From NCBI RefSeq assembly GCF_036588685.1, contig NC_086384.1:15686001-15750000 (forward strand): a stretch of 64,000 nt of DNA, written 5' to 3'. The first letter of the stretch is position 1. The number at the start of each line of letters is the position of its first letter. The position numbers and the translations under genes were made by a program. A model generated the notes under the pieces. It did not search any database. It was not told the DNA's origin and saw only the letters and a list, made by a program, of their open reading frames with translations. The stretch is from Mytilus trossulus. Its lineage: Eukaryota. Below are positions 19,112 to 49,950 of this stretch, one piece after another.

Positions 19112-19163
19112 ATGATTTACTCTGTAATTTTGACTTTTATGATCTGGAATAGCGCACTTCTAG
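19112..19163 (+). CDS. gene 2 first coding exon, signal peptide
   Basis: MIYSVILTFMIWNSALL(G), donor GTAAGA, upstream acceptor tttctttatAG. Confidence 0.7.
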
Positions 19164-21585
19164 GTAAGATTCTCATACATTGTAAAAAAAAAATATTAAG
19201 AAAAATACATTAAAAAAACAAGGTGCGCAATCGAACTCATAATAAAATGTCAGGCTTTCATTGTATAAAATTAGAACGCAAAATGCGTGCTTCGCCTACA
19301 TTAGACCTACATAAGACCCACGTTCGTAGTAAAAAAAGGTTAATAGGGTAAATAGTTGATAGGGTAAACAGTTAAAGAGGCTACGCGAACGACACCGCTA
19401 GACGACAGTAGTGATATATATGTATCAACATAGCTGGAGAAACAATGATTGTTTTTATTTGGAGAATAAGGTGATAAAGTAAAATCTTTAATTATTTGTA
19501 TACAAAATACCTCCTTTGCTAATTATATCTGCAAACGTAAAGTTTTACTCAGAGGCAACGTTTTGAAAGTTACTGACAATGTGTAGACCGATTTGCCAGA
19601 ATCTTACCTTTTGAAAATCGGTCAATTTTGAAAAACTCGTGAACGGGAAACACTTACAAATGTTTGTATGAACAGACATTTAAAGTCCAAAAATATTTCA
19701 TATTTGCTACAAAGTTGAAACATTATGTCATATCATTAACTACTGTATTTGTAGTATTTTATAAAATGAATAAGTATTATTTGTATTTTAATAGTCTCTC
19801 ATAATTCTTTTAAGAATGGCACAAACATGTATTTAATTGTTTTAACTATGTTTACTGTATAATTAATTTTATAATTGTATCTTGTTTTAATCATGTTGTA
19901 TGTGGTGAGACTTTAATAAACTATAGAATCTTGAATCTGAATCTACAAAGTTGAAATTGTAAAATAAAATAATCGAAAAATAAATCCAAAGTGTAAAAAC
20001 TAGAACTGCTTTTTGGTCTACAAATATTTTAAATATATTTGGACAATTGGGACAATGACCCATATGCACCTAATATATTTTAAAAAAATCACAGCTACGA
20101 GAATTGTAAAATAGTGATTTCGAAAAGACTCAAAGAAACTTGATAGATAACTTACTCCTTGATTTTATTTAATCAAATTAAACATTTTCTTCAGGAAAGA
20201 TTTTTTCACTCGAATCGTATATACATGTACAATGTATGAACCGCTAGTGGATGATTTAGTTATTAAAATCTCTATGGCTTATCAAAAACATAATCTTTAA
20301 TATCTTGCTCTTTGGTTGAAATTCCCATATTCAATATTTTTATTGCGTAAAGAAATCCTATTCTTACTTATGAATCTGGACATTGTGGTATACATATGAT
20401 AAAATGTGTTTGTCCTCGCTGCGAAACAGGAGTTGCTCCAATACAGATGTCTTAAATTTGTTTAATCTTTCTTTACAAATATTTCTGATTAATTGATGGT
20501 TGTTATATTTCTATGGAACAGTGACACATATTTCATTCTTAAGTGAAACTTAGTGACCCCAATTTTTTTGTATAAAGTATATGATAAAGTTCATTTATAG
20601 AAATAAAGCGAAATCTTATATTTTAAAAAATTATACCCGCGAGCCCCCTTAAGAAGATAACAATTAAGCTATTAAACAACACATATATATTTAAAGAATG
20701 AGCTGGTTCCTTAGATAGGCTACATACGGACCCATCAAAGTATTGCATGATTTTTAAAACTCATAAAGCCTGGCATTCGCTTTTATCAAAATGAGTTATC
20801 TATTCAAAACCAGCGTTGCTGCGTATCTCAAACCTGCAAACTAAGTTAAAGGGATGCCCCTCTTTTTAGCACGTCTTTTACCAAAAAAATAATCAAATTA
20901 TCAACTTTGAATAATTAAAAGAAATGTTTGTTATAATCATACTGCTGTTACGACAGAATTATATTTATATTCCTAATCTAAAGCTAAAAATCAAAACTGT
21001 TTTGTGTATTGAAATCCGGTAAAAACAATATACAGATGAAACGCGAAATAGCATTTATTTTTTAATTGTTACAATGTTGCATTTAATTCTTCTGTTTTCG
21101 CTCCCATATTTAGGTGTCTACGTTGTCATGTTCTCAGCATTCAATTGTTGATGACTTTTAAAGCGTTGTTGTAACAAAGTTTTTTTGCCCTTTTTTTGTT
21201 GTGTCATAATCGATATTTTCGTCCCAATAAAAGTTATGTCCAATGACGTAGTCCAATGACCTTGTTTTAAACACAAACACAGTGGGATCGATAAAAAACT
21301 ATGTTCAACATTTCAAACTAGAACCTAATTTCAGACTAAAAACATAAACCAACAAAAACTAGTTTGATCCAGAAACATATTCATGTCCAAAATTAGAAAA
21401 CTCTGACTTAGTTCTCTTTTATCAAAGTTTTTCTGGTTTTTTTTTAAGAAAAAATGTCAGTTATTGATCAACGGTTGGAATGTCTGCATATATTACAGGG
21501 TAGTAATGTTAAAAATTTGATATAAGATATACATGTAACTTCCGAAAGGATTTGGCTAAAACTTTCAAAAAATGTTTTATTGCAA

Positions 21586-23850
21586 AAAAGTCACTGTTAG
21601 GAATTGATCTTTAAAATGTTCTAGGGCCGAAAAATCAGGTGGAAAATTTAAAGGTTATCATGATATAGACAACAATTCACTGTTAGGAATTGATCTTTAA
21701 AATGTTACACGGACGAAAAGTTCCTGTTAGGAATTGTTCTTTTAAAATGTTATATATACGGAAGAAAAGTCCCTGTTAGGAATTGTTCTTTTAAAATGAT
21801 CTAGGTTCGACAAGTCACTGTAAGGAATTTTTCTTATGAAATGTTCTAGATTAAAAAAGTTTCTGTTAGAAATTATTCTTTTAAAATGTTCTAGATTCGA
21901 AAGGTTTCTGTTAGGCATTGTTCTTTTAAAATGTTCTAGGGCCGAAAAGTCTCTCTTAGGAATTGTCCTTTTAAAATGTGTTAGGGGCGGAAAGTCTCTG
22001 TTAGGAATTGTTCTTTTAAAATGTTTTAGGTCCTAAAAGTCTCAGTTACGAATTGTTCTTTTAAAATGTTAAAGGACCGAAAAGTCATTGTTCTTCTAAA
22101 ATGTGCTCGGGTCGTAAAGTCACTGTTAGTAATTGTTTTTTTAAAATGTTCAAGGGTCAAAAAGTCACTGTCAGAAATTGCTCTTCCAAAATGTTCTAGG
22201 GCCAAAAAGTCACTGTTCGGAATTATTCTTTTAAAATGTTGGATGTTTGTAAAGTCTCTGTGAGGAATTGTTCTTTTTCAATGTTCTAGGTTCTAAAAGT
22301 CACTGAAAGGAATTGTTCTTTTAAAATGTTCGAGGTTGGAAAAGTCACTGTAAGGAATTGTTCTTTTAAAATGCTATAGGTTCTAAAAGTCACTGTAAGG
22401 AATTGTTCTTTTAAAATGTACTGTGTTCTAAAAGTCACTGGAATGAATTGTTCTTTTTAAATAATCTAGGTTCAATAAGTCACTGTAAGGAATGGTTCTT
22501 TTAGAATGTTCGAGGTTTTAAAAGTCACCGTAAGGAATGGTTCTTTTAAAATGTTCGAGGTTTGAAAAGTCACTGCAAGGAATTGTTCTTTTAAAATGTT
22601 ATAGGTTCTAATAGTCACTGTCAGGAATTGTTGTTTTGAAATTTTCTGTGTTCTAAAATTTACTGTAAGGAATGGTTCCTTCAAAATGTTCTAGGTTCTA
22701 AAAGTTACTGTAAGCCATTGTTCTTTTAAAATGTTTTAGGTTCCAAAAGTCACTGGAAGGAATGGTTCTTTAAAAATGTTCTAGGTTCTAAAAGTCACTG
22801 TCAGAAATTGCTCTTCCAAAATATTCTAGGGCCGAAAGGTCGCTTTAATGAATTGTTCTTTTTAAAAATGTTCAAGGGCCGAAAAGTCAGGGTTAAATTG
22901 TTCTTTCAAAATGTTCGAGGTTTAAAAAGTCATTGTAAGGAATGGTTCTTTTAAAATGTTCTAGGTTCGAAAAGTTAATGTAAGGAATGGTTCTTTTTAA
23001 ATGTTCGAGGTTTGAAAAATCTCTGTGAGGAAATGTTTTTTTTTAATTTTTTATTTTCTAAAAGTCACTGTAGGGAATTGTTCTTTTAAGATATTAGAGG
23101 TTTGAAAAGTCACTGTAAGGAATTGTTCTTTTAAACTGTTCTAGATTCTAAAAGTCACTGGAAGGAATGGTTCTTTTAAAATGTTCTAGGTTCTACAAAT
23201 CCCTCTAAGGAATGGTCTTTTAAAATGTTCTAGGTTCGAAAAGTCACTGGAAGGAAAATTGTTCTTTTATTATGTTCTAGGTTCGAAAAGTCAATATAAG
23301 GAATAGTTCTTTTAAAATGTTCGAGAGTCGAAAAGTCACTGTAAGGAACAGTTCTTTTAAAATGTTCTAGGTTCTAAAAGTCACTGTCAGAAATTGCTCT
23401 TCCAAAATGTTCTAGGACCAAAAAATCACTTTAAAGAATTGTTCTTTTTAAATGTTCAGGGGCCGAAAAGTCAGAAGGAAATTGTTCTTTTAAAATGTAC
23501 TTGGTTCTAAAAGTCACTGGAAGGAATAGCTCTTTAAAATGTTCTAGGTTCTGAAAGTCTCTGTAAGGAATTGTTCTTTTTAAATGTTCAAGGGCCAAAA
23601 AGTCAACAGGAAATTGTTCTGTAAAAATGTTCTAGGTTCCAAAAGTCACTGTTAGGAATTGTTCTTGTAAAATGTTCTAGGTTCGAAAAGTCACTGTAAG
23701 GAATGGTTCTTTTAAAATCTGTTATGGCTAAAAAGCCTCTGTTAGAAATTGATCTTTTAAAATGTTATATGGAATAAAAGTCACTGACGTGTAAGGAATT
23801 ATTCTATTAAATGTTCTATGGAAGAGAATTCACTGGTAGGTATTGTTGAT
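21586..23850. repeat. 45-bp satellite array, ~50 diverged copies, intronic
   Basis: unit aaaagtcactgtaaggaattgttcttttaaaatgttctaggttct. Confidence 0.95.
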
Positions 23851-23902
23851 TTAAAATGATATAGGGCCGATAAGTCAGTTTTAGGCAGAGTTCTTTTTTA
23901 GA

Positions 23903-24044: not shown

Positions 24045-25334
24045 CCTTTATACTGAAATCGAAAAAAAATAATTTAATTATGAAAAAAATATGTAACAAA
24101 AATTGTTAAAAAAAGTGTTTTGAATTTCCCTCTTGGGGTATCATTTTGGGAGATTTCCCTATGAACGTAGTCCAGGCGGTAAGACATTGACATTTTAAGG
24201 AATTAGAAAGGGAAAATGAACTTAATTAATAACATTTGATAAACATGGTATATAAAAAAAAAATTGTAGCATCAATATCTTGTTGTAGTTTATTACAGCT
24301 TTTTAGGTCTACCATGATTCTCTTTACATGATAAGGTTATCAACTAAAAGTCTGGAAATTTTGTTTCCAAAATATTTAAATGTGATATACAGGTCTTTTG
24401 GTAAAATATGTACTGGCAAAATTGTTAAGTGCAAACACTATTTTTCTGTTTCAAAATCTTGAAAGTTCTACTTTTTGACTTAGGGAACCAAATAAAAATA
24501 GTTGTTAAAAACTGTTATTATGGTGGCCACAAAACAATGTTAAAAGTTTCCACTACAAAATACTCCAGCCGAACTAAAATTGTAACTATTAATAGATTAA
24601 TTCTTTCATTTGTTCACCAATTCTATTACCTTTAGTGGTGTTAAAATCATTTGTTTGATATTTCAAGTATGCATTCCATATTAATTTCTCTAAAAACACA
24701 CTGTTAAGTACAGATGAACTATACAAAGGATGACGTAATGCTGTACAATATAATACATTTAAAATAAAAACAATTTGAGTAAAGAAAAATCGAATTTCTT
24801 AAACTGCTAGATTTGAAATTGTATAATATTATCTAACTGCTTTTGAACTTTGAATTGAAAATCGTTATAATACAAAGAAAATTCTGATGAAAGTTAATTG
24901 TCAGTATTTGATCATGATATAAACAGCCAAAACAAGCTGTCATCCATTGAATAATCACGTGATTGTCATGTTCTTACAAAAAGCAACTATATTTATACAA
25001 ATGGTCTTTTGTTGCATTTTCGTCATTCTAAATATTGAATTGTTTACATATACCAGTTGGAGTTCAACATCGAAATACGGACGACTGACCGACATTGATA
25101 TTGTTTTTGAACGGAAATTCGATTTAAAGGAAAAGGGTTCAACAAGTCTCAGTTTTGAGAGTTCTTATTCAACTTTGATAGAGACATCGGATTTTTTTTG
25201 TGTCCATCTTTTAAAAAAAATAATACATTGGAATACACTACCATTGTTATAATAATGAACATAAAAATTATATACATATAAACAATGTATAACTAATGTC
25301 CATGCAAAATCAATGATACATTTTATTTTTACAG

Positions 25335-25352
25335 GTGGCGTGTTAGCACAAG
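25335..25352 (+). CDS. gene 2 18-nt microexon completing the signal peptide (GGVLAQ)
   Basis: tttttacAG / GTAAGA, phase 1-1. Confidence 0.75.
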
Positions 25353-25879
25353 GTAAGAGAATAAAATTCCGAGAATAAAATAAAATTTGTAGCATTATAA
25401 CTGAGAAAAAAATATGACAAATTAAGAAGATTTATCATAAGTGGAGAAAAGAATCGAAGATCGAAACAAAAAGCAACCCATTCTTCAAAGGAAGGGGAAA
25501 GTGACATTCGGGTACTACAGATTTCTCAGCGGGAATCGACTCAAGCTTCTGTAACATTGTAGCATCTCCTACACCTCTATGTCCAGTGAACGATACATGT
25601 GGTACTCGGCTAAAAAAGCCAATATCAATTATGCAAAGATTTGCGTCGTCGGTTTTATCAAGGCCTGGATATTTTGATGGTATTACAGACAGTCGAATAC
25701 TGTTTTCTCTCTGTTTCCCTGATAGCGTTTTCTCGGTACAAATGTACTTTACAGACGAAATATTACATTTGTATATTGAATTAAAATCGAATATAATATG
25801 TAAATAGAAAATAAATGAAATAAAAGTAGATATTTTAGAGAAAGATCATTCATATTAATTTGATTTTTTTGATTGACAG

Positions 25880-26095
25880 ATTGCGTGGATAACGACTTGA
25901 TGGTGTTTGTTGATGACACGTGTTTGACCATGCACATGATTACCCCGTACACAAACACCTATGGTTCTAACGTCACGTATCGTTGCTCTTCTCGTCTGTA
26001 TTCACTTCAAACGGCAGAATTCGACTTTTGTCCAGTGGAACTTTGCACAACAACTAATGCTGGCAACTGGACAGACGCTCACCTTTCGTGTGCTC
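25880..26095 (+). CDS. gene 2 atypical 6-Cys CCP/sushi-like domain 1
   Basis: DCVDND...TYGSNVTYRC...FCPVELC...GNWTDAHLSCA; AG/GTAAGT. Confidence 0.85.
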
Positions 26096-26279
26096 GTAAG
26101 TACATGTTTCTCCATGTTTGCTTAAACTAATAAATTTACATATCAAAAAAGGAATTTTAGAATTAAGATAAATCTATGAAATGAATAAATAAATAAAAAG
26201 AACTGGTATATTGTTCATCTAATTTTGAATAGAATTAAGATTGATTACGAACAGAATCCATGCTTAAAATTACTTTCAG

Positions 26280-26537
26280 AGGATGAATGTTATACATCCG
26301 GGTCACCACATTTATACGCGGGAAAACGCAACTGTGGATTGTCTGGGATGACATGCCAAGCATGGAATCAGCAAACTCCACATGCGCATACATACATAAG
26401 CGCAGACTTTCCAGACGCCAGCCTCGATCTCGCCAAGAACTACTGTCGTGACCCAGGAGGCTCTGTTGGTGAACCATGGTGTTTTACCACCAATTCTAGT
26501 GTTGTCTGGGAAATCTGTGAAATACCAGAATGTTCAG
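26280..26537 (+). CDS. gene 2 kringle 1
   Basis: CY...YAG...SGMTCQAW...NYCRDP...PWCFT...WEICEIPEC. Confidence 0.93.
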
Positions 26538-27013
26538 GTATCTATTATCATCCTTTATTGTTCATCATCTGCTAATATTTGATTGAATCACAAATAAAAC
26601 AAAACATCTATTTTTCCACATTATTCTATATAAGATAAATGTTTTAACAATCGTAGGACTATTTCAAGGAACAACAAAAAAACCACCCAAAAAATGAAAA
26701 CGAAGATCTTCATTCAGCTCATACTTTCCTACTTTAGCATAAATATTATTGATTGCTTATTTCACAAAAGACGCATTTAGTTCTGTTAAACAAATTTTCC
26801 AATGTATTTTTTACTTGATTGTTTAAAGTGAGCAAGGAACACATTTTTTAAATCGACATTGCTATACGCACAGATATAAAAGCGACAACCAATCGCGTCT
26901 TCATTGTTGAAGATAAATGTATTACAACTATGTAGGCTAGGTTGTGGCTCTATTTAAACCAAAATCGTCTTTGTCATTGTTTTTGTTAATAAAAATTGTA
27001 TTAACTATTTCAG

Positions 27014-27040
27014 AGGTGCCAATAGACTACGGAGAATGTG
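27014..27040 (+). CDS. gene 2 27-nt Cys microexon (EVPIDYGEC)
   Basis: tttcAG / GTGAGT, phase 1-1. Confidence 0.8.
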
Positions 27041-27404
27041 GTGAGTAAATTTCTAAGATTAAGAAAAATAAAACATACTAGATATTAACATAAATACGGA
27101 AACGAGATATAATCTCCGCCAATAAGCATAATTATCATATTCCACACATAATATAACCAAAGTTTTAATTGATTTAATTTTATTTAAAGAATTAACCATT
27201 CAAAAGCAAACATCTTAAAAAAAGTACCCTGAGGAAATCAATACCAGTTTTGATTAAATTGTTTCAAACGTAAGTATATATTACGATAGTGGTACAGCGA
27301 ACCAGTCAAACAATCAAATAAAAGCAAATTAGAAGGAGAATATTATACACCCTTTAAGAAACGAAAAGTGCATATTTTATTTCAAATATTTTTTGCCTTC
27401 TTAG

Positions 27405-27614
27405 CTGATTGTGGCCCGGCAGACTTACAGGTACCATTTGATCATCCTTGTACAGAAATAGACACAATCATCACACCACCAACGACGTACGGAACAGTTG
27501 TAAACTACAAGTGTACAAACCTGTTATCTAAGGTTTCAGCAATCAACGGTTTCTGTCCAGTGGAGGTTTGTCAAGCCAATGGTGTGTGGACGAACGGATC
27601 CCGGTCATGTGGAG
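27405..27614 (+). CDS. gene 2 atypical 6-Cys CCP-like domain 2
   Basis: DCGPAD...TYGTVVNYKC...FCPVEVC...GVWTNGSRSCG; paralogous to 25880-26095. Confidence 0.85.
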
Positions 27615-29144
27615 GTATTTCATCTCAGAGTTTTTGTCTTTTAATGAAGTAGAAGCACAATATATTTTCAAAAAAGTGAACATTCATAAAAAGAACACTG
27701 CATTTCTAGAGACTGTGGAACATTTGATTAAACCATCTGTCAAGTAATAATAACGATTTTTAGTGCGTTTCCATAATAGTATCATGTACATGTATTTGTC
27801 ACAGTGATCTTGACATACACCAAATTATCGTGATGGCTATAACAATACAGTGACTTGGATACTCTTTTTATTAACTGTAAATATTGCTTTAGCATTTAAG
27901 CGTCTGCATTGAAAGGCAGCTATTCAGTTAATGAAATACTAAATCTCGATATATAAATAAGGCGTACATATATTTTCCCGCGCTCGTGCAATAATATTTT
28001 ATTCTATTTAAATCGTTCAGGTATTTATTGTACATATGAAATTGTGCATTGACGTATATTAGAAATGTCCACGGCCGACACTCGGCTAACCGAGAGATAG
28101 ATCGGTTAATCTATATTGAGTATGCGGCTATATCGGCGGTGGGTCTGTTAATCGGGTTGGTTATACGTCTGTTAAGAGTAAAACTCATAATTTAATGTTA
28201 AACTCTGTTAAATATACAGATTTGTTGGCACATTATGAGAATCACATAAAAAAAAGGAATGTGTCTGACAAAATGATATCTTTCATAGAACATTTTCCAC
28301 CATTAACAAAAAATCATAGCCTGCGCAATTTTAAGTAAAACGAAAAGGCGTCGCGCAAGCATGTGGTTTTTATGCTTGTACGCATATCAATATTTTAGAT
28401 AAAAGGCCAAAAACCATTTTTAGATATGATTTAAAGGACACAAAGTAGTACTTTGGTTCTAAAAAATCAATTGTCATTGATAAATATTTCAAAATTGTTA
28501 TATAAGTTGAGTTATACCACATTTTAATGAATATAAGAAGAATACAGTCTGTTCATGGGTTGGACAATTTAAATCGTGTCAGTTAAGAGTTATTTAGCCA
28601 CGACAATAGTCTTACTACCTTGAGTTTTTATTTTCACATTGGAAAAAATGAGATGTACTAATGACGAAAAATATACAATACGGTGCAACAGTATCCTTAT
28701 AAAAGAGCACTTTTATTTTAATTTTTTTTCTCTGCATTTCATTAAAAGGGTGTGTCACTTCAAATAAGCGTTATATAGACTGATTGGCCGCTCTAATTCG
28801 CATGAATTTATTATTTACGCCAAGTTATCAATCAGCCGTATGTTTTTGTCTGTTCAAAGTCTGTTACATCTATGAATCTTTCATGTGTTGCAATTCAGCT
28901 GGTTAAATTCCATGCGTTTTCTTTGGAATACTAAGGCTTTTCTACCTCAGGAATAGATTACCTTATGCCGGCGTCACACATTGGCGGATAGACCAGCGTG
29001 CACCAAACGTACAGAGAAAACGGACAGAGTCGGTATACGTTAGTTGCACGCCATAGGAACGATTAGCAATCGTTCAAAGCGCTTTGCATAAGTTTGAAGT
29101 ACGTCGAAATACAAAGGTAAAATTGAGAAAGGAAATGGGAATGT

Positions 29145-30105
29145 CTTCTCCAGGTTCCTCACCCGTTCATATTGACCCTAACGCTATTAATCATGCTTCA
29201 GTCCCTGCAGGCCTAAGCTCTCTGCAATACCAGCCAACGACTGAAACTACATCTGAAACATGCCAATTGCATGCACTTTAGCCCAGTCAGATATCATTCA
29301 AATAGCCTTGCAATTAAAAGAAATGATACATTGTGAGATCGACTACACTATCAAAGCCACAATAGACCAGTACAAATTTGAAATCGAGAGGCTTAATAAA
29401 GAAAACCAATCGATGCGTGATGATATGGATGTGTTTGAACAATACAGTCGACGGGACCTAATTCGTATCAATGGCATTTCAGACGGTGGAATAGATATAT
29501 CTTCCCTTCAAACAAACGAGTTAGTGAAAAAACTTATCCAAACCATCGATGAAGATGATCTAACACCCGAAGACATCATTCGATCTCATAGAATTGGTAA
29601 ACCACGCACAAGGGAAGGCAATGAAGAAGGTCGAGTTAGCAATAAGTTTCAGCCTCCTAGACAAATAATTGTCAAGATTAAGGATCATAATGTTAAAAAG
29701 AGGATCATTAGATGCAGAAAATTCCTAAAAGGGAAAACACAATACAAGTATGTCAGAATTAATGAGGACCTGACCAAGCCGAGGAACGCCATACAAAGCC
29801 AGACAGCTCAGTATTGAGCGTCATCTAAGAGACACGTGGACAGTTGATGGGAAAATTATGTAAAGGACAATCAAATGCAAGTCCATGTTGTCAACACAAT
29901 GCCAGCGTTCCTACGTTTTGTATCGATATACCGCTGTCCTGGTTCCATGGACTTCCTTGATAGGCTTGACTACAACAACAAACTAAACAGACGCGAGTAC
30001 ACACCACCACAACTTATAACATATGCGGAAGCACAAGCGAAGGAATTAGCCGAGAGAGCATCTTCAAATACATCAGCTGAAAACACGATTGTCAAAATGT
30101 CATGA
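29145..30105 (+). pseudogene. LINE ORF1 (L1-ORF1p-like coiled coil/RRM), frameshifted
   Basis: EQYSRRDLIRINGI, RSHRIGK, PRQIIVK, INEDLTK, TWTVDGK motifs across frames. Confidence 0.85.
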
Positions 30106-31088: not shown

Positions 31089-34000
31089 ATGGGCGTAGGA
31101 ATCGAGTTATATCGCATGAGAGTTGGCCAATACTCACCAGGCAAAAACATCAAACAAAGACTAAATTATATTGATTTTATCTGTATCAACTTATTTCTCG
31201 CTTGTAAAAGTGTCTCACAGGCACATTCTAATTTTCACGATGTCGCATCAATTAGGCATATGCCCAATACCTTCAGAGATGAAACATGTAGACTCAAATG
31301 TACAAAAAACAACAAGTGTAAATGTTAATCTTAGACTATTTATTATTTTATTTTTACTATTTGTTATTCAAATTTTGCTTGTCCTAGCAGGAATAGAGGT
31401 AAATCCAGGTCCAAGTGACGATATCGATTCTTCTCAAAGTTCCATTAACTCAATTGACATGTCGGATTTCGGTGAACTTTTTTCAAAATCAGTCTCAATT
31501 CTTCACTTAAATGTACAAAGCCTAGCCCCGAAAATAGATCTGAGTCAAGCCGAATATTCTGATTTCGACATTTTAGCGTTTAATGAAACATGGTTAAACA
31601 ATAATCATACCGACGAATCAATTGAAATCCTAAATTACCAGCACCCCTTCCGTCGTGACAGAGGTCCACACAAGGTTGGAGGGGGGATAATTGTTTATGT
31701 AAAAAATGATATACATGTTCAACGTCGAATTGATCTCGAAAGCGAAAGCTTGAAAGCAATATGTTAGAATTTAAATTTAAAGATAAAAAGGCTTTGCTCG
31801 GAACCTTTTATATACCTCCTAATAGTGGATCAGATATCTGGGAAAAAATTGAATATTCTCTTGATATGGCGTCTAATGATACTAATACTATTAATTACAT
31901 AATGGCCACAGGCGATTTTAACGATAACCAACTAGCTCCTGTTAATTAAAAAATTACACCTTTGTTAAGCCAATTTAGTCTTACTCAAATGATAGATTAA
32001 CCTACTCATTTTACTGAATCGTCGTCATCATTGTTAAATCTTTTTATACCAAACGATGCTCACATAATAAATTACAGTGGAGTCGGGCCACCATTATTAG
32101 ACCAAATACGTTTTCACTGTCCTATAATTAGTCTTTTGAACTTTCCAAAATGTCGTCAAACAACCTTTAAGCGTAAAATTTGGCTATATGATCGAGGAGA
32201 CTATGACAGATATCGTAACATTTTATCTGAAAAAAATTGGGATTCCGTAATTAACTTAAATAACGTTGAACAATTTACAACTGAAATAACAAAAACTATC
32301 ATAGAAGCTGCTGAAAAATGTATTCCAAATAAAATAGTAACTGTTCGTAAAAATGAACCTCCATGGTTAAATAATGATGTTAAAAAAAAGATAAGGAAAA
32401 AAAATAGAATCCACAGAAAGGCTGAAAAATATAATAACCCATCGGAGTGGTCATAATTTAAGAAAATACGAAATGAAGTTACTAGTTTAATAATAAAATC
32501 GAAGGATGATTATAACAACAATTTAATTAAAAAAATCATGAACAGTAACCCGTCCACTAATAACTGGTGGAAAACGGTTAAACAAATATCCGGATTAAAA
32601 ACGAAAGACGCAAGTATACCTCCTTTAATGGTTAATAACAACTTAATATTTGATGAAATCGAAAAGGCAAATGAATTTAATCGATTTTTTTCTTCCCGGT
32701 CAAATATTGATGATTCAAGTGCTGTGTTACCTGAAGAACATCATAACATTAGTTATATAGAACTAACTGTTACTGAAGTTGAAGATATATTGAAAATTGT
32801 TAATCCCACAAAAGCTTCTGGCCCTGACCTCATAAGTCCCAAATTGTTAAAAAAAGCATCTTCTGTTTTAAAGTATCCACTATGTAAACTATTTAACTTA
32901 TCGTTAAGTACGTCTACTTTTCCAGATCAATGGAAAAGAGCAAATGTTACCCCAGTTTATAAAAATAGTAAACCGAATGACGTTAAAAACTATAGACCTA
33001 TTTCCTTGTTGAGTGTAATATCAAAGTGTATGGAACGATTTGTATACAAACATGTTTACAATCACTTTATGCGCAATAATATTTTAACGAAAAACCAGTC
33101 GGGCTTTACACGGGGGGATTCAGCGGTTAATCAATTAATTAACATTTCGAATGATTTTGGGAAGGCTTTAGATAGCGGTAAAGAAATAAGGGTAGTATTC
33201 TGTGATATTAATAAAGCGTTTTATCGAGTCTTGCATAAGGGACTGCTATTTAAACTTCAACAAGCGGGCATATCGGGTTCTTTACTAAGGTGGTCTGAAA
33301 ATTATCTTACAAATAGAGTCCAGCGGTTGGTTATTAACGGTTCAAGTTCTGGATGGTTACCTGTAAATGCAGGCGTCCCACAAGGGTCCATTGTAGGCCC
33401 TCTCCTTTTTTTGATATTTATAAACGATATTGTAAAAGATATTCAAGCTCCAATTAAGCTATTCGCAGATAACACTTCATTATATATTATGGTTGACAAT
33501 CCAACAGAAACAGCTAAAATTTTAAATGATGATCTAGATAAGATTTATAATTGGTAAAAAAATTGGCTTGTGAATTTTAATGCCCAAAAAACTGAAAGTA
33601 TGATAATTTCAAAAATAAATAAATAGACCTTTTCATCCTCCATTAAATATGAACACCCAAGAGTTACAAACAATAAGTAAACACAAACATCTAGGTGTCC
33701 TCTTTTCTAATAACGGATCCTGGAAAGATCATATTGAATACATAGTTTCTAAATCTTACAAAAGAATAAATATAATGAGAAAAATGAAAAATGTCTTTGA
33801 TAGATTTTCACTTGAAAAAAATTATATATCATTTGTTCGCCCAATTCTTGAATATGCCGATGTCGTTTGGGACTCTCAAAATCAGAATTTGATTGCTAAA
33901 CTTGAAAGTTTTCAGCTGGACGCAGCGCGTATCGTCACGGGCTCCAATTAAGCTATTCGCAGATAACACTTCATTATATATTATGGTTGACAATCCAACA

Positions 34001-35121
34001 GAAACAGCTAAAATTTTAAATGATGATCTAGATAAGATTTATAATTGGTAAAAAAAATGGCTTGTGAATTTTAATGCCCAAAAAACTGAAAGTATGATAA
34101 TTTCAAAAATAAATAAATAGACCTTTTCATCCTCCATTAAATATGAACACCCAAGAGTTACAAACAATAAGTAAACACAAACATCTAGGTGTCCTCTTTT
34201 CTAATAACGGATCCTGGAAAGATCATATTGAATACATAGTTTCTAAATCTTACAAAAGAATAAATATAATGAGAAAAATGAAAAATGTCTTTGATAGATT
34301 TTCACTTGAAAAAAATTATATATCATTTGTTCGCCCAATTCTTGAATATGCCGATGTCGTTTGGGACTCTCAAAATCAGAATTTGATTGCTAAACTTGAA
34401 AGTTTTCAGCTGGACGCAGCGCGTATCGTCACGGGGGGTACTAAACTTACCAGTATAAACAATTTATATGTTGAAACGCGATGGGAAAAATCATCTGTAA
34501 GACGATGCAATCACAGACTAACCCAGTATCACAAAATTTTGAATAATAAAACTCCAGAGTATTTAAGAAACTTATTACCTAATTCAGTAGGCAGTACGTG
34601 GGCATGATCATAATACAAGACAGAGAAATAATATTTCACAAGTCAACACACGGACCCGTTTATATTCTGAATATTTCATCCCTGCAACAACAAAACTATG
34701 GAACACTCTTAACTTAAACATAAGAAAATGTGAATCTCTATCATTATTCAAAAAACAAATTAGTACCCAAAATAGTAAGATCCCAGCGTATTATTATATA
34801 GGACATCGTTTTGGTCAAATTCTTCATGCTCGCTTAAGAATGGATTCAAGTTCATTGAAATCTCACCTTTTCCTTCGTAACTTAGTAGACTCTCCAAATT
34901 TTCGTTGTGGTGATGTAGAAACAAATTCTCACTTCCTGTTATCTTGCCCTTTATATACTAATTTAAGACAAGAACTATTAGATTCTGTTTCAGTTCTTCC
35001 TGTCCAAGTTAACACAACAACTTTGCTTTTTGGATCAACGGTACTCTCAGATGAGCAAAATAGTCTTTTATTTAGTTTGGTGCAGAAATATATTATTAAA
35101 AGTAAACGTTTTAACCCTTGA
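31089..35121 (+). pseudogene. LINE ORF2 (AP endonuclease, reverse transcriptase, C-terminal Cys/His), disrupted
   Basis: HLNVQSL, NETWL, GDFN, YRPISLL, GVPQGS; catalytic FADD changed to FADN; multiple stops and frameshifts. Confidence 0.93.
33447..34434 (+). repeat. 494-bp tandem duplication inside LINE RT
   Basis: 33447-33940 repeated at 33941-34434; ORFs 33649 and 34143 are near-identical, differing only at the 3' end. Confidence 0.95.
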
Positions 35122-38975: not shown

Positions 38976-39227
38976 ACAAGGAATGCTACGATAGCGCTGA
39001 GGGACAGTCTATGTGGTATATGGGCAAGCAGATATGCACCTCTGATGGAACACCATGTGTGCGATGGGATTCCCTCAGTCATGGGTATACAAACACTAGC
39101 TTTCCCGAAGAATCGGTTGTTCTAGCTGGAGCGTATTGTAGAGATCCTGGCGGACTCAAAGGAAAGCCGTGGTGCTACATATCTGGAGATTTTTATTACA
39201 GTTTCTGTGGAATTGCTGATTGTTTAT
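38976..39227 (+). CDS. gene 2 kringle 2
   Basis: ECY...YMG...DGTPCVRW...YCRDP...PWCY...FCGIADC; AG/GTACGT. Confidence 0.92.
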
Positions 39228-39999: not shown

Positions 40000-40026
40000 C
40001 ACTACCAGTTGTACCAGACACATGTG
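40000..40026 (+). CDS. gene 2 27-nt Cys microexon (SLPVVPDTC)
   Basis: tacAG / GTATGT; same length and Cys position as 27014-27040. Confidence 0.8.
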
Positions 40027-41320
40027 GTATGTACTTTTTTTTTTTCAACTTTAAATATTTTATTTCATTCCTGGTTGTGAACAATGTCCCTTAGCGCTAC
40101 AACAATGACGCTAAGGTTCATCCCTGTGTTATTAATTACTAATGAAACCAGGGGATTTGATAAGCAAAATATATCTTATATTTATATCGTGTGTTAGTTG
40201 TATTTTACAAAGTATTAGTACTTTTCAGTTCATAAATTCATACACTAATGGCCTTTGTTAGTCTTGTTTTTTTTATTTTTGTTTTTTGTGTACAATTTGG
40301 AAATTAGTTTGGCGTTCATTATCACTGAACTAGTATATATTTGTTTAGGGGCCAGTTGAAGGACGTCTCCGGGTGCGGGAATTTCTCGCTACATTGAAGA
40401 CCTGTTGGTGACCTTCTGCTGTTATTTTTTCTATGGTTGGGTTGTTGTCTCTTTGACACATTCCCCATTTCCATTCACAATTTTAATATAAAAACTTGAG
40501 AAATTCAAAAATGAAATGTTTTGTTGATGTGAATACTCGTAAAACTTTTTAATGATTGAGTAGTAATTTCTTGATTTATACGATAGAAGTAACGTTTACA
40601 ATTTTGGTTTCCATTGTTACGACATTTGTGAAGGCAAATTATAATTAGACCTTGACTTGATTAAAGTAAAAAGATTGAGAATGGACATGAGGAATGATCA
40701 AAGAGACAACAACACAAACAAAAAGCAAAAGAACATAACAGCTGTGGGCTACAACATTTACAAAAGGGTCTCCAGTTTAGCGAGAAAAGCCCGCATCCGG
40801 AGGCGCGCTTCTACTGACTTCTAAACAAAAGTGAGGACTTCTAGTTCAGTGAAAATAGCCTTTGTATTAATATCCAGATTTCATACCAGTATAGCATTAG
40901 GTCACATGTCGTTTAGATAAACAAATCCGTATTCAGCTTCACGATACATATTCATGCATGAAACGTGTGTCTATATTATGTCATTAGTTTATGCATGAAA
41001 TGAGTGCTTATTAAAAGTCATTATATTTTGGACTCTCTTTAGTTATTTTCAAACGAATGCACTATCGCCCTCGTAATGAATTAAAACTATGGAAGGATAC
41101 TAGAAACTATTTCACTTAAATCATGACGTTATTTGATTTTTACAAGATACACTGTGTGCTTTACTGTTTGAGTCAAAAGTCCGGCACAAATATGGAAACT
41201 TAAAACTGCTCACAAAAGGTACACAAGACTGCCGAAGAATAACTTATATTTAGCCACTAGTTTGATAGAATTTCTTAGATAATTTCTCTTAATTAGATCT
41301 TACCAGTAAATATTTTGCAG

Positions 41321-41350: not shown

Positions 41351-41947
41351 GTAATTTTTAATACGTCGTTATGTTAAATGAATATGTGTGTCTTAGCCAC
41401 ACAAAACCCAAACGTAGATGCATATAACTATTTCAGCAAACAAATGACACGGTTTATTTATTTTTAACATCAGTCAAAATATATGTCTTATATTCATTTA
41501 TTGCAATTGAAAACAGAGGATGACAAATAATTGAAAAATAGAGAAAAATAAAAACATCAACCATCAACATGATCAACATGTTTCTTTGGTTTTGTAAAGG
41601 AATATCCGTTGGTTTTTTTTTTGTTAAAAAAACTATCTTTCTTTCATCAGATAAAGACTGAAATGTGAAATCCGCTGGTTTTTTTTTAACCTTGACACTT
41701 CTTACACTGTGGACGGATACTAGTTACTTATTTCACTAAAAACTGGATTACGTGTTGTTGTCAATGTTGTTTCTTTAAAGATACAATGTGTGCTCTAATG
41801 TTTAAGTCAGAACTCAGACACTTATAAGGAAGCTGGAAATTGTTTACAAAAGGTACAAAATGTTGCTGTGGAAAATCGTAAGTTTAATGGAATGTTTGAC
41901 AGTGTTTCAGTTAATAAAATCTAACGAGCAAACAATTTTTTTTTCAG

Positions 41948-41977
41948 ATCAAACAACAGTCGAAGCAACAACCCAAG
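41948..41977 (+). CDS. gene 2 30-nt Thr-rich microexon (DQTTVEATTQ)
   Basis: ttttcAG / GTAGTT. Confidence 0.8.
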
Positions 41978-42468
41978 GTAGTTTTTGTTAATTTGTTTTA
42001 ATAAATGAATCTGTATGTCACATCTAACACAAAACCTATACATACATGAAACTTATATATATCTATCAAGGCATTTAAAATTCAAAGAATTGAAGAGAAG
42101 AGAAAAAGCCGAAAACATAAAATTATTTCTTCAGTTTTGAAAAAAAGATACATTTTGGTTTATAATAACCTATCTTTGTCTTTTAAGGTAAGGATTAAAA
42201 TATAAAATCCGTTTTTTTCTTTGCACTTCAATCGCTAAAAACTTGACGTGATTATGTTGAGAAAGTTGTTTCTTACAAGACCCTTACAAGATGCAATTGA
42301 TGCTCTTATGTTTGAATTAGAACGTTGGCAGATTTATGGAAACTCAAAACTGCCTACGACAGGTACGCAATGCTGCTATGGTAAAACTTAAGTTAGCCAT
42401 AAGTTTGATAGAATTAATGACATAATTTCACTTAATATCTAATGAGTAAAAAAAAATGTTTTTTTCAG

Positions 42469-42498
42469 ATCAAACTACCGTCGAAGCAACAACACAAG
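42469..42498 (+). CDS. gene 2 30-nt Thr-rich microexon (DQTTVEATTQ)
   Basis: ttttcAG / GTAATT. Confidence 0.8.
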
Positions 42499-44506: not shown

Positions 44507-44683
44507 CTCCATCATGTCCAATACCTAAATTGATAACGTATTCTACAAATTCCTACACTGGTCTATTGTCTGGTGACAATGTGACATATGTATGCGATCA
44601 AGGATATGCTGTCACATCTGGCAATCTTGTTCGCACATGCGATTTGAGTGGTGTATGGAGTGGTTCTTGGCCAGTTTGCACAA
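44507..44683 (+). CDS. gene 2 CCP/sushi domain
   Basis: CPIP...GDNVTYVCDQGY...RTCDLSGVWSGSWPVC. Confidence 0.93.
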
Positions 44684-45382
44684 GTAAGCTCAGCAAATTG
44701 TGCATTTTAAAAGTCATTAGAAGATCAAGTGACTAATATGATTTATATTTTAGATCTATGTTGTGTTTTGTCTTTTTGTAGTTTCTTTTTTGCAACAGTG
44801 TTGTCAGCTTAATTCCACCTCACGCATCATTGAAAAAAGAATGGAATTTGACGCGACTTTCGTACAAGCGCGAGGTTTAGCGCTATAATGTGTTTATCAT
44901 TTGATTTTGCCAATTGACTGGGGACTTTCCGTTTTGAATTTTCCTCGGTGTTCATTATTTTTGTGATTTTACTATTTAGATATTGTTTTCAAAATTTAGC
45001 AAAAGCAAATTTTTAAAATTTCTTTATGTTTTTCCTTTTTTGTTTATGTTTATAAACATATCAAAATCATTATCATGATTATATATACTTTAAAATAAAG
45101 ACAATATGATGTTACACATTGTTGTTTTTCATCCTTCTGTCTTAGGACGTGATCACACCAAACGCCATGTACAGTAAACATGTTTACAATTAGTTTCATG
45201 TAATAAAAACTGGTTTTACATTACATTTGATCACATCTATACACCTGGTTTATTTACCAGTTTTGTTCAACTTTATGCCATTTAAATATTCATTACATAG
45301 AACCGAATTAAAGTTTCTTGGACACATTTTCCAACAGTGATGAAAGCCATTTTCATGATTTGAACCTAGTTTAAAGATACTA

Positions 45383-45833
45383 TACAGCTACTTTTGCATA
45401 GGTACTATTCCTGTACCAAAAATCTGTAGTACTGGACATCTACTTTTAATATTCAGTACTATTTTTGTTACTTTAAAATTATTGTAATATTTAGGTACCT
45501 ATTTTACAGTACTTGATTTGTACTTGAAATTTAAGTACTACAGATTTTTGGTTGCATGGTTATATTTTCAGTATTTTGTGTTTATCTTCTTCATATCTCA
45601 TAAAGTTATGATGTTCAAACATGGAATACTGTATCATTTTTTTTTATAATTGTTGAAACAATGTTGTACCAATGTTTTAAGTACAAATCAAGTACTGGAA
45701 AATACAAGTACCTAAATATTACAATATTTCTAAAGTAAAGAAATAGTACTAAATATTAAAAGTAAATTTCCAGTACTACAGATTTTCAGTACAGAAATAG
45801 TACAGAAAAAGTACCTATGCAAAAGAAGCTGTG
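45383..45833. mobile_element. fold-back MITE with long inverted arms
   Basis: tacagctacttttgcataggtact / agtacctatgcaaaagaagctgtg; arms about 170 bp; TA duplication. Confidence 0.8.
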
Positions 45834-47292
45834 TAAAGATGTCTCGATTACTCGATTACCAGAGGCGGATAAAGACATTTTTAAAATGCATTGGGTTCTG
45901 AATATTGATACTCCTAAAAAGGGGGTTCCATCCGCCGGAACCCGTCCCTATCTGAATCCGCCACTAAGTACACAATACATTACGTAGGATACAAAAGAAG
46001 AAGAAGTATTGGTTGGTTGATTGTTGCATGGTTGCTTTACGCCGCATTAACATAAAAAGGCTTTATCGCGGCGAAAGAAGTATTGAGATGTCAAGGGTGT
46101 TTTAGTATTGCATTTATGAGTGAATCGTTGATTCACCAGTGGCGAATATTTCTGTGTACGTCCAGTCAATTTGGGAAGACATTTTCAAATGAATTATGTG
46201 TTTGGCAATGGTGATGTTTTGAGTCTGGATTAGGGGTTCAGGGAATGACCATTCAACTAAAAAAGAGAGGATTTTTTATTTCTCCATAAAATATTCTAAT
46301 TCTAAAATTGATGAAAAAATATTCTGTTCAATGAGGAAAATAAATTTCTGAATCCAGATTTTCACCTTATCTGATTGTGTTAAATTTTTAACAAAACTAT
46401 TTGATTAATAGCTTTGAAAAACTTAATAAAAATATTCGTGCACGAAAATTTGTTGTGTCGAACATGAAAACCATAACCACCTTCACGCATGTAGTGAAAT
46501 GGTTGCTCCCTAATATGGCGACTTACACAGTATTTTTAAAACATTTTTTTAATATATCGAGATTAGACAAATGATTCAGTAAAACAACTACATACTAAAT
46601 AATTGTTATAAATGTATTAATTTTTTTAAAAAGAAGTTTCTTCTTTAAATATACATGTTGTTTTGTGTACACTGAATCACACAAGTTCTACATTGACTAT
46701 CGACTGCATGTAGTCAAAACATGATTTAAACTACATGTAAACATTGAGTTTTATCAATAGGCACGTAAATGTGTTTTGTTTACGTGTGAATTACACTAAA
46801 ACAACACAGAGTTTATGTCAATGAGAACACGACCTTACATTTCAATACAAACCACAATTAATCTTGAAATAATATTTTGTAAAGCATAACACATTGAAAT
46901 GCAAATAATTATCTTTTACACGACAATAGGGAGAATACTATGTATGAAGCCAAAGATTTGCTAGAGAGTTTTCTTATAAATGAATTCATTTGAAATTGTC
47001 AAATGTCTATTTTTATCGACAAAATTACTTTGTTTTGTATGAATGCTTGGAAAGAGTAGAGTCTATTTTTATCGACAAAATTACTTTGTTTTGTATGAAT
47101 GCTTGGAAAGAGTAGAGAAGTCCATAAAACATGAAGAGTTATTTTAGTTTTAGATCTAGAATAACGATTTAGAAATGATTTAAAGGGCATACATTTCTCA
47201 TTATTCATCTAAAACATTAATTTTTTTATGAAAGTTTCAAAATATTATCATGATGCGCAAACATATTTTAAATGTGTATTACATTATTACAG

Positions 47293-47469
47293 TTGTAACA
47301 TGTGGAGAACCTCCAGCAATTCCGAATGGAAGTTATACTGTCTTGGGATACAACGTTGATCATACAGTTACTTATGTGTGTGACGATGGATTCGTTCATT
47401 CTGCTGGAAATTTAGTTGGAACATGTACCAGTTCAGGGACATGGAGTTTGATAGTACCATCTTGCAGTG
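47293..47469 (+). CDS. gene 2 CCP/sushi domain
   Basis: CGEPPAIPNG...VTYVCDDGF...CTSSGTWSLIVPSC. Confidence 0.93.
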
Positions 47470-48011
47470 GTAAAGGAGTGTTTTTGTATAGCTTACACAT
47501 ACCATCACTTGCATTGTGACGTCCTTTGTTAACTATTAATAACATTATGATTCTGAAATTAGAGGGCCAGTTAGAACCATATTTAACATTTTTTCCTTGA
47601 ATTTGAAAAATTTAAATGTCAGATGTTATTTCTGACAACTAACAGGGCCATCAATAAAAAGACAGGAAATTACAGCTATATTTTGTTATGCAAGTCTTCA
47701 TAGAAAGAGAACAAAACGACAGGAATTGAAATGTGCACAATTTACTTCAATCTACCTATTGATAATTTGCAATAAAAATGCCACCAACGTAAAAAGTAAA
47801 ATCACAAAAATACTGAACTCGGAGTAAATTCAAAACGGAATGTCCCTAATCAAAAGGTAAACTCAAAAGATAAAACACACGAAACGAATGGTCAACAACT
47901 GTCATATTCCTGACTTGTAAGTAAATGACCCACAAAAAGAATTAACAGTTTTGTTTTGTTTGGTGAATCGAAAACTATTAAAAATCATAATAAGAATATT
48001 TATATACTTAA

Positions 48012-48582
48012 GGTGGTATGGGAGTCTAAAATAAAAATGATAGAATTTGTTCATATTTTGCCAAAACGTAGTATCTATATGTTCAAAAATATAATAAAAA
48101 AAGATAGGTCATCGCGCATTTTCTCAAGCTACAGGTTGTGACAAAATGACACATTTTGAATGGATTTTACAGGGAAAAACATCATTTAGTGTTTAGAAAC
48201 TATAAAAAATGATAGAATTGTAAAATAAATTAGGAAAAGATAGTTTTCAAACACTGCTTTGAAAATATCAATAGAAAAGATAGGGTCACCGTACGTTTTT
48301 CCCGGCTTAAATACAAAATAGGAAAATTCCAAGTAGATTTCTTCCGAAAATGCACTGTTTTAGAGTGACCTCCCTTTAAAATTCCAATTTAAAAACACTT
48401 AAAAACAACCAAAAATAATCAACACTTGTAAAAATATTAATATTCTTATAAACTTGTTTTTTTTAAAAAATTCACATTAAATATCTGCATTCCTGCATCA
48501 AATTTTGCTAACTTGATAGAAAATCTGGATCTTTGGTTCTCTGTTTTTTACAATCTAAGATGACGAAAGACACCATACCACC
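48012..48582. mobile_element. Kolobok-type MITE
   Basis: TTAA TSD; TIR ggtggtatgg / ccataccacc. Confidence 0.8.
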
Positions 48583-48915
48583 TTAAATGCAATAAATGTA
48601 CCAAATATAAATTTTTCTTATCTTTCATATGCTTGTTTCATAAAAAGCAAAAATTTCAAGAGAGTAAATCTATTTGATAGTTCTATACAAGCTGTTTTTT
48701 TGATAAAAAAAGTATTCGCCAAAGATAAGTTTAAATATGGGATAGTTAGTCTACGTCAACAATATAAAGAGTATCTAGAATGTAAAGATATGTCTATAAC
48801 ATGTATAAGTGAAGATTTGATTGATAAGACAATTTCCAAGTATCAAATTGTTATTAATACGAATTTGTTTTTTTAATAATTTCTATACACTCTACTGTCT
48901 AAACCAATTTTACAG

Positions 48916-49092
48916 CTGCCTTGTGTCCGTCACCACCAACAATAGCCAACACTGTTATAAAAGAACAAGGAAGAAGTCCCGGAGACAAAGTAGTCTATAG
49001 TTGTATACCTGGATTTGTTGCCGTCTCTGGTGATCTGGAACGTGTGTGTAGTACTAGTTTGTCTTGGGAAGGAATCAATCCGGTTTGCATAC
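48916..49092 (+). CDS. gene 2 CCP/sushi domain
   Basis: CPSPPTIAN...GDKVVYSCIPGF...CSTSLSWEGINPVC. Confidence 0.93.
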
Positions 49093-49699
49093 GTAAGTTT
49101 CAAGGGTATAATATAATTTATAATAAGGAGATGTGGTATAATGTCAAATGAAACAACTATCTTTTGATGTTAAAATATAGAGGCTGTAAGCCAATATTGA
49201 CAACTGTACGGGTTCAAATAAATAGAAAAAACAGAAGGCAATAAAAGGACCCGACATAGAATAAATGTGTAACGATTTGGTATAAATCAACAACACCACT
49301 GAAGACTTCTTACTTACTACATTATGCGGCGGGGTTAAACATTTGTGTTTGTGCCAAACCCTTCACCTTACATGAGACAGTGGTGTGACAGTGTAACAAA
49401 CTATAGGACTCCTTTTGAAGAGGTTTGAATTGAACTTCAATCTGTTACAACACACAAAGGAAGCAACAGCTTTTAATATAACAAAACGTTTATATTATTG
49501 GAATCTTTATGCAACAACTGCATTCACATGGTTAATTTCTTTCTGGTTTTTTTTATGATCACCTTAACAAAATTCGAAGTAAACAAATAAATGTCCACAA
49601 AACAACACACAGAAAAGGAAGATTGAGAAACACAAAACCCCACCGAAATTAGTTGGTCTGGAAGTATCATTGTGTTTTGATAACATTTTCTTTTCACAG

Positions 49700-49950
49700 A
49701 AATTGTAAGCGGTCAAAAAACAGATCGTAACTACAAGAAAGCAACTCAAAATTTATCAAACTATTTACAGCTGTATCAACCAAAAGCAAGGTCTAATTTA
49801 AACTGTGCAGAAAAATGTAACAAGGATTCGTTGTGTAATTCATATACTTTTGATAATAGTGTTAAGGCATGTCGTCTGTATATGTTTGACATGACCGGAA
49901 GTAATCTTGTTTGCACCGGAAGTGACACATGCTACATTCGACAGTCATGA
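49700..49950 (+). CDS. gene 2 terminal exon, PAN/apple domain
   Basis: SNLNCAEKCNKDSLCNSYTFDNSVKACRLY...CYIRQS*; AATAAA at about 50221 and 50392. Confidence 0.85.

What the first reader, a model, noticed from the sequence alone, without database searches (positions are those of the whole stretch)
19112..49950. Unusual secreted mosaic protein: (CCP-like, kringle) x2, mucin stalk, CCP x3, PAN; every intron phase 1
Seen: 15 coding exons join in frame to about 643 aa with no stops. There is a split signal peptide and no TM or protease domain. Known: kringle plus PAN defines plasminogen/HGF-type proteins, and CCPs typify complement regulators. Inference: here PAN is C-terminal and there is no serine protease, so this may be a lineage-specific exon-shuffled recognition or decoy protein. 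Both kringles have RDPGG instead of the Asp-x-Asp lysine-binding motif, suggesting a different ligand. Six exons are 30 nt or shorter, so automated annotation would probably fragment or miss it.
Basis: partly seen in the sequence, partly recalled or inferred. Interest (0 to 1): 0.72.

Follow-up and report, generated by a model that had tools for sequence, protein, structure and literature searches.

The report
Bivalve sushi-kringle-PAN secreted protein family
This is a real, spliced mussel gene for a predicted secreted protein with no enzyme part; it belongs to an apparently undescribed bivalve family that databases mislabel as plasminogen or HGF, and it likely works as a multi-armed binding protein outside cells.

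Summary
In detail: 15 exons, 643 aa, all 14 introns GT-AG and phase 1. The gene is from a Mytilus mussel, and a 623-aa RefSeq model 90% identical already has the whole domain order, so it is not missed by annotation, though other models split it. Phase-1 introns are the rule for such modules, and lacking Asp-x-Asp is the default (26 of 30 other kringles in this genome). The interesting part is a three-exon, 14-cysteine unit: a 6-Cys sushi variant below Pfam's cut-off, a kringle with a seventh Cys and invariant RDP, and a one-Cys microexon. Repeated one to five or more times before a C-terminal PAN domain, it defines a low-copy family found in eight bivalve genera. This gene adds a short Thr-rich spacer and three ordinary CCPs. 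It is not a plasminogen/HGF member. Best reading: a non-catalytic, multivalent extracellular bridging protein; ligand unknown. Modest interest.

The parts
18790..18850 (+). Candidate non-coding 5' exon (start approximate); strong donor after 18850, puts an in-frame stop just before the ATG
19110..19163 (+). Exon 1: ATG at 19112, hydrophobic core of predicted signal peptide (aa 1-17)
   Evidence: joined to exon 2 in X4 loose end
25335..25352 (+). Exon 2, 18-nt microexon: end of predicted signal peptide (aa 18-23)
   Evidence: present in P0009, P0004
25880..26095 (+). Exon 3: 6-Cys sushi/CCP variant, unit 1 (aa 24-95)
   Evidence: no Pfam hit; AF2 pLDDT 83; 49 of 50 listed structure matches are CCP-bearing chains, Z up to 3.5
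26280..26537 (+). Exon 4: kringle 1 with a seventh Cys and RDP motif (aa 96-181)
27014..27040 (+). Exon 5, 27-nt microexon with conserved Cys, closes unit 1
   Evidence: equivalent microexon in the C12 paralog
27405..27614 (+). Exon 6: 6-Cys sushi/CCP variant, unit 2 (aa 191-260)
38976..39227 (+). Exon 7: kringle 2 with seventh Cys and RDP motif (aa 261-344)
   Evidence: joined to exon 6 in X1 and X4 loose ends
40000..40026 (+). Exon 8, 27-nt microexon with conserved Cys, closes unit 2
   Evidence: present in P0009, P0004
41321..41350 (+). Exon 9, 30-nt Thr-rich spacer repeat 1
   Evidence: lies in tandem intron+exon duplication units
41948..41977 (+). Exon 10, 30-nt Thr-rich spacer repeat 2
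42469..42498 (+). Exon 11, 30-nt Thr-rich spacer repeat 3
   Evidence: model P0003 also has three repeats, P0009 one
44507..44683 (+). Exon 12: canonical 4-Cys CCP (skipped in RefSeq isoform X2, P0002)
47293..47469 (+). Exon 13: canonical CCP
48916..49092 (+). Exon 14: canonical CCP, closest to the single CCP of relative P0108 (45% vs 36-38%)
49700..49950 (+). Exon 15: 6-Cys PAN domain and stop; only net-basic domain (+5) of an acidic protein (pI 4.45)
50221..50226 (+). First AATAAA after the stop, candidate polyadenylation signal

Best explanation
The gene encodes a protease-free mosaic protein, predicted to be secreted, of a bivalve-wide family built from a repeated three-exon unit (6-Cys sushi variant, 7-Cys kringle, 1-Cys microexon) and a C-terminal PAN domain, and it likely works as a multivalent extracellular bridge in mucus, matrix or haemolymph. 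Shown: gene structure, splicing of exons 1-7, domain order, family range, loss of the lysine-site residues. Inferred: each unit is a disulfide-locked binding head (the kringle's extra Cys would pair with the microexon Cys, the six sushi Cys among themselves); the heads would bind a repeated protein or glycan target without using lysine, gaining avidity from their number (1 to 5 or more across the family); PAN would hold a second partner; the Thr-rich repeats and three CCPs would set the reach between the two ends and can be lengthened or shortened because every exon is phase 1-1. This gene probably arose from a one-unit-plus-PAN or one-unit-CCP-PAN ancestor by gain of a second unit and CCP exons.
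For: Gene and splicing. Orthologs 86-90% identical. Profile of five 6-Cys modules against 1.84 billion representatives: 48 hits, 35 of this type, 13 weak cross-matches to long repeat proteins; 8 of 20 representatives looked up carry an organism name, all bivalves, 12 unnamed. In 23 proteins mapped with local profiles, 38 of 40 such modules are directly followed by a kringle, the two exceptions being broken or truncated models (includes isoforms and orthologs, not independent). Across 22 units from 13 proteins the extra kringle Cys is 22/22, the linker Cys 21/22, RDP 22/22; 0 of 12 parsed ordinary kringles of this genome have the extra Cys. Unit number and spacer vary: 1 unit (P0050, P0053, P0074, P0075, P0077), 2 (P0011, P0049, P0107), 5 or more (P0105), about 700 aa spacer (P0106), one CCP (P0108). 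No catalytic or TM domain. Low copy: 3 genes, 5 units found in a genome with at least 150 kringles. 6 of 9 differences in contig X4 are synonymous, as for a constrained protein.
Against: No ligand, tissue or induction data; all functional steps are inferred from domain type. Junctions 7-15 were not observed directly: support is the ortholog models and a contig length (1566 = 1349 coding + 217 of 3' UTR). Disulfide pairing could not be read from the model, and the full-length prediction failed (pLDDT 36.5). One unit in P0011 lacks the linker Cys although its kringle has the extra Cys (may be a skipped microexon). The basic charge of PAN is not a family trait (net -4 to +6 in 12 proteins). The tree does not resolve where unit 2 came from. 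Copy counts in this genome are lower bounds.
Confidence: 0.5

Rival explanations
1. Soluble immune recognition protein or opsonin: the kringle units or PAN recognise microbial surfaces and the CCPs recruit the bivalve C3-based complement system.
For: Secreted-type protein with kringle, CCP and PAN domains, all used in defence elsewhere (recalled); three contiguous canonical CCPs; Mytilus versions differ by 4-15% at the protein level; a PAN/C-type-lectin-like gene lies 10 kb downstream (by eye).
Against: Only 3 genes found in this genome, unlike the large expansions typical of bivalve recognition families (recalled); contig differences are mostly synonymous, 6 of 9; most family members have no canonical CCP.
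Confidence: 0.25
2. A growth-factor-like ligand, functionally like the protease-free HGF splice forms NK1/NK2 but with PAN moved to the C-terminus, binding a cell-surface receptor.
For: Same two domain types as NK1/NK2 and no protease; HGF kringles also lack Asp-x-Asp and align over the full kringle; low copy and conserved across bivalve subclasses; PAN is net basic in this subfamily.
Against: Domain order is reversed; unit number and spacer length vary far more than expected of a receptor ligand; kringle 1 matches plasminogen, ROR and prothrombin kringles about as well as HGF; no receptor was looked for.
Confidence: 0.12
3. A complement regulator (factor H / DAF-like) acting through its three canonical CCPs.
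For: Three tandem Sushi domains over the Pfam cut-off; three CCPs suffice for some vertebrate regulatory sites (recalled).
Against: The CCPs are the dispensable part: absent from most relatives, one in P0108, one skipped in isoform X2; their nearest genomic matches are generic multi-CCP genes at 30-45% identity.
Confidence: 0.08
4. Two adjacent genes (a kringle gene and a CCP-PAN gene) joined by mistake, or a protease gene that has lost its protease exons.
Against: No second signal peptide or start exon found before exon 12; the PAN exon's only close match in the genome is the PAN of the one-unit paralog (52%), and unit 1 groups with that paralog (100/99); relatives across bivalves link units to PAN in one chain; other models join both halves (P0009, P0010, P0001); the last exon ends in a stop after PAN.
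Confidence: 0.04

Closest known systems
Plasminogen / HGF / MSP family
   Same: Kringles plus a PAN domain in a secreted-type protein; kringle 1 aligns to plasminogen and HGF kringles with E about 1e-17 to 1e-23; databases use these names for family members.
   Different: PAN is last, not first; no trypsin-like domain; each kringle is preceded by a 6-Cys sushi variant and has an extra Cys; Asp55/Asp57 site absent.
HGF splice forms NK1/NK2 and angiostatin-type kringle fragments
   Same: Protease-free PAN/kringle binding proteins (recalled; PDB entries).
   Different: Those are fragments or splice forms of protease-type genes; here the whole gene family lacks a protease and has the reverse order plus sushi modules.
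Apolipoprotein(a)
   Same: Kringle-containing units multiplied by tandem exon duplication; the Mercenaria member with 5 or more units is auto-named after it.
   Different: The repeat here is a three-exon sushi-kringle-Cys unit, no protease-like domain, no lysine site.
Complement control proteins (RCA family, beta-2-glycoprotein I, SVEP1/CSMD-type multi-CCP proteins)
   Same: Three canonical CCPs; the 6-Cys module aligns end to end with CCP folds.
   Different: CCPs are interleaved with kringles and PAN; the family-defining module has six Cys and a CPV motif, and scores below Pfam's Sushi cut-off.
Database models of the same locus in Mytilus (XP_076085439.1, XP_076085440.1, CAG2214250.1, CAG2233824.1)
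   Same: Same domain order, 86-90% identity.
   Different: Uncharacterised automatic models named SVEP1-like, CSMD or HGF; they hold one spacer exon instead of three, and some skip microexons or a CCP.

Membership tests
Plasminogen/HGF family | Kringle domains | tested here: met
   Pfam Kringle over cut-off on exons 4 and 7
Plasminogen/HGF family | PAN domain at the N-terminus | tested here: not met
   PAN is the last exon here and last in 12 proteins examined
Plasminogen/HGF family | C-terminal trypsin-like domain (active or inactive) | tested here: not met
   Stop follows PAN; no Trypsin hit in P0009, P0105, P0106, P0108, P0053 or 19 other relatives
Lysine-binding kringles | Asp55 and Asp57 anionic centre with Arg71 (PMC8618066, passage) | tested here: not met
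   Both positions after RDP are Gly/Ser or Gly/Leu; alignment to plasminogen K1 and K4
Sushi/CCP domain (exons 12-14) | Four Cys, conserved Trp, about 60 aa, Pfam Sushi over cut-off | tested here: met
Sushi/CCP domain (exons 3 and 6) | Sequence match to Pfam Sushi over cut-off | tested here: not met
   Exon 3 none, exon 6 16.4 bits vs 20.7; 6 of 28 family modules match weakly, best E 0.0034; best PDB sequence match CD46, E 0.016
Sushi/CCP domain (exons 3 and 6) | CCP fold | tested here: inconclusive
   Model pLDDT 83; 49 of 50 listed matches are CCP-bearing chains aligned over residues 1-71, but Z only up to 3.5, rmsd about 3 A over about 55 residues; Foldseek no match at E 0.001, weak rows mostly CCP proteins
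Regulators of complement activation | Binding to C3b/C4b with cofactor or decay activity | not testable with these tools
   needs assay
Class 1-1 exon-shuffled mosaic proteins (PMC8001218) | Each module on an exon flanked by phase-1 introns, after a signal peptide | tested here: met
   14 of 14 introns phase 1, one domain per exon
Mucins | Long Pro/Thr/Ser-rich tandem repeat region | tested here: not met
   30 aa, 40% Ser/Thr, no Pro; the paralog P0106 does have a spacer of about 700 aa

The most novel reading that the evidence does not exclude
Bivalves independently built an HGF-like signalling ligand from the same parts in reverse order: a disulfide-locked sushi-kringle supermodule that engages a receptor, and a C-terminal PAN that holds it on glycans, with exon-number changes tuning valence and reach.
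Probability: 0.1. Interest if true: 0.72.

Novelty: new variant of a known kind. Interest (0 to 1): 0.36.

Why it matters
The gene itself is already in databases, but the family appears not to have been described: a conserved 14-Cys sushi-kringle unit that Pfam sees only in half, so that bivalve genome and transcriptome papers count its members as plasminogen, HGF, apolipoprotein(a), SVEP1 or CSMD. Defining it corrects those labels (relevant to claims of a bivalve fibrinolytic or coagulation toolkit), gives a new domain model, and offers a compact example of a three-exon unit that is duplicated as a block. If it proved to be a receptor ligand or a complement-linked recognition protein, it would be a case of convergence on HGF- or factor H-like function in a protostome.

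Tried and rejected
Full-length AlphaFold2 on a 6-sequence alignment failed (pLDDT 36.5) and was not used. ESM Atlas: no usable hit for residues 24-190 of P0009; for P0011 only leads under 0.9. HRM (hormone-receptor domain) for the 6-Cys module: weak Pfam score but 1 of 28 members, and no class B receptor domain among the 50 listed structural matches; one weak Foldseek row; not adopted. Byssus link: the 'plasminogen-like' footprint protein of Dreissena bugensis (PMC12993968: passage, section 6, one supplement row) shares its transcript cluster with zonadhesin/IgGFc-binding proteins and could not be tied to this family. 'Plasminogen' and 'SVEP1' among muscle-enriched transcripts in PMC4581086 (passages) carry no accession in the passages seen, so could not be tied either; its supplements were not read. 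PMC13608469 and PMC13425148 (passages) mention kringle, PAN or sushi domains only generically. Ten literature searches (listings only) returned no paper on this architecture; the library lacks most subscription papers. No run on record as RNA was listed; the runs used are unlabelled or guessed. Read-through from the upstream TSP1 gene into exon 1 was considered because exon 1 is itself symmetric; that gene has its own last exon and stop, and the candidate 5' exon puts a stop before the ATG. A scan for extra symmetric exons in the introns found only LINE frames and alternative ends of known exons. A donor for the three CCPs was sought: the multi-CCP gene about 250 kb upstream is only 30-47% identical, no donor can be named. 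A two-chain fold of the 6-Cys module with its kringle was not run, so their packing is open. Four look-ups of earlier scan findings returned nothing.
Full report
Observation. Fifteen exons between 19112 and 49950 join to 1932 nt, 643 aa and a stop; all 14 introns are GT-AG and phase 1, and six exons are 30 nt or shorter. Pfam on eight exons gives two kringles and three Sushi domains over cut-off, PAN_1 just under it, a sub-threshold Sushi/HRM score for exon 6 and nothing for exon 3. Hydropathy shows one N-terminal hydrophobic stretch and no TM segment; the mature chain is about 67 kDa, pI 4.45, with eight N-glycosylation sequons.

Expression. Four public runs were laid on 25200-27900. One contig of X4 crosses exons 2, 3, 4 and 5 and its loose 5' end is the end of exon 1; X1, from another study, shows joints 3-4, 4-5 and 5-6; both continue from the end of exon 6 into the start of exon 7 across an 11.4-kb intron that holds a broken LINE. 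X2 covers exon 4 and intron unspliced and X3 one exon. The runs are not on record as RNA, but no intronless copy turned up in the genome, so the joined forms are taken as mRNA (inference).

Orthologs. Exon 6 finds Mytilus edulis and M. galloprovincialis proteins at 91-93%. So annotation sometimes fragments it but has not missed it; the names given are SVEP1-like, CSMD, HGF, plasminogen-like and beta-2-glycoprotein-like.

Family. The genome holds two more genes with the 6-Cys module: one with a single unit, Cys microexon and PAN 3.7 Mb away on the same contig, and one with two units on C5; counts are lower bounds. A profile of these five modules against 1.84 billion representatives gave 48 hits, 35 of this type and 13 weak cross-matches to long repeat proteins. 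Of 20 looked up, 8 carry an organism, all bivalves; the named genera are Mytilus, Pecten, Pinctada, Sinanodonta, Potamilus, Ruditapes, Mercenaria and Dreissena. Twelve are unnamed, so the range outside bivalves is not excluded. In 23 proteins mapped, 38 of 40 modules are directly followed by a kringle, and complete models end in PAN except Pecten P0045, where none was detected. Unit number runs from one to five or more, the spacer from none to about 700 aa, canonical CCPs from none to one (P0108, unnamed) to three (Mytilus). Over 22 units from 13 proteins, not independent of one another, the kringle's extra Cys and RDP are invariant, the linker Cys is in 21, and the CPV motif and Trp of the first module are conserved; none of 12 parsed ordinary kringles of this genome has the extra Cys, and none of 30 has RDP (these are the best Pfam scorers, a biased sample).

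Fold of the 6-Cys module. With a 28-sequence alignment AlphaFold2 gave pLDDT 83. Foldseek found nothing at E 0.001, its weak rows being mostly CCP proteins; the exhaustive alignment listed 50 chains, 49 of them CCP-bearing, aligned over the whole model at Z up to 3.5. Sequence profile hits in the PDB point the same way. It is best read as a diverged sushi domain with a third disulfide; the low Z leaves this short of proof.

The two 'surprises'. All-phase-1 introns are what class 1-1 extracellular modules show in animals, including the intron near the signal-peptide cleavage site (PMC8001218, passages); the neighbouring TSP1 gene is built the same way. The lysine site needs Asp55 and Asp57 (PMC8618066, passage); both are absent here, but 26 of 30 other kringle cores in this genome also lack the pair, so this says only that the kringles are not plasminogen-type lysine binders.

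History. In a tree of 25 units, unit 1 groups with the one-unit paralog and with P0053 and P0108 (100/99), while unit 2 sits on a long branch without a supported place (one of several near-identical tandem units and partial models were left out). The PAN is 52-57% identical to that paralog's and 44-46% to P0053 and P0108, against 20-28% to other members; the last CCP is closest to the single CCP of P0108. The simplest account, inferred, is a one-unit(-CCP)-PAN ancestor that gained a second unit and more CCPs. The three spacer exons lie in tandem intron-plus-exon duplications of about 600 bp, 58-69% alike.

Mechanism. There is no catalytic or membrane domain, so the protein must act by binding. 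The conserved part is the unit plus PAN; valence and spacing are free to vary. That fits a bridge that binds a repeated target with its units and a second partner with PAN (0.5) better than an expanded immune receptor (0.25; only three genes, 6 of 9 contig differences synonymous), an NK2-like ligand (0.12) or a complement regulator (0.08; the canonical CCPs are the dispensable part). The pairing of the extra kringle Cys with the microexon Cys is inferred from their co-occurrence and the even count, not seen. No ligand or tissue is known.

Verdict. A real, expressed, already modelled gene; ordinary in how it was built; not a member of the plasminogen/HGF family. Its value is as an entry to an apparently undescribed bivalve family with a new sushi-kringle supermodule (no paper found in ten searches of an incomplete library). 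New variant of a known kind; interest 0.36.

Noticed in passing
window 39-8520 (+): 3' part of a TSP1-repeat gene: 7 symmetric 171-177 nt exons (Pfam TSP_1 on the one tested) and a last exon with a hydrophobic, GPI-signal-like tail and its own stop.
   Followed up: partly
window 60484-63151 (+): Three-exon secreted-type gene with PAN-like and C-type-lectin-like parts by eye (no Pfam hit at E 0.01 for two exons tested); in-frame TAA at 60628, codon 49, so probably a pseudogene or null allele.
   Followed up: partly
window 31165-35121 and 29257-29817 (+): Broken LINE (endonuclease and RVT_1 frames) inside intron 6, with near-perfect internal tandem duplications of 494 and 89 bp; an ORF1-like frame lies upstream, no Pfam hit.
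   Followed up: partly
window 12731-18268 and 21677-23877: Satellite arrays: 43 bp x 129 just upstream of the gene, 45 bp x 49 in intron 1.
   Followed up: no
window 41140-41225, 41820-41860, 42300-42366: Each spacer duplication unit carries a second donor-like site with an exon-like stretch before it; one is 31 nt between AG and GT and would shift the frame. Possibly decayed exons.
   Followed up: partly
G000:C12:15416566-15481506: Large multi-CCP gene about 250 kb upstream with some 30 near-identical CCP exons from recent tandem duplication.
   Followed up: no
G000 whole genome: At least 150 kringle-coding exons, many in tandem clusters; the expansion did not turn up as a subject in the literature searches.
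   Followed up: no
P0010 vs P0007/P0001 (M. edulis models): Two M. edulis versions of the C-terminal half differ by about 15%, more than M. edulis P0010 differs from M. galloprovincialis P0009 (4%): old alleles, introgression or a hidden duplicate.
   Followed up: no
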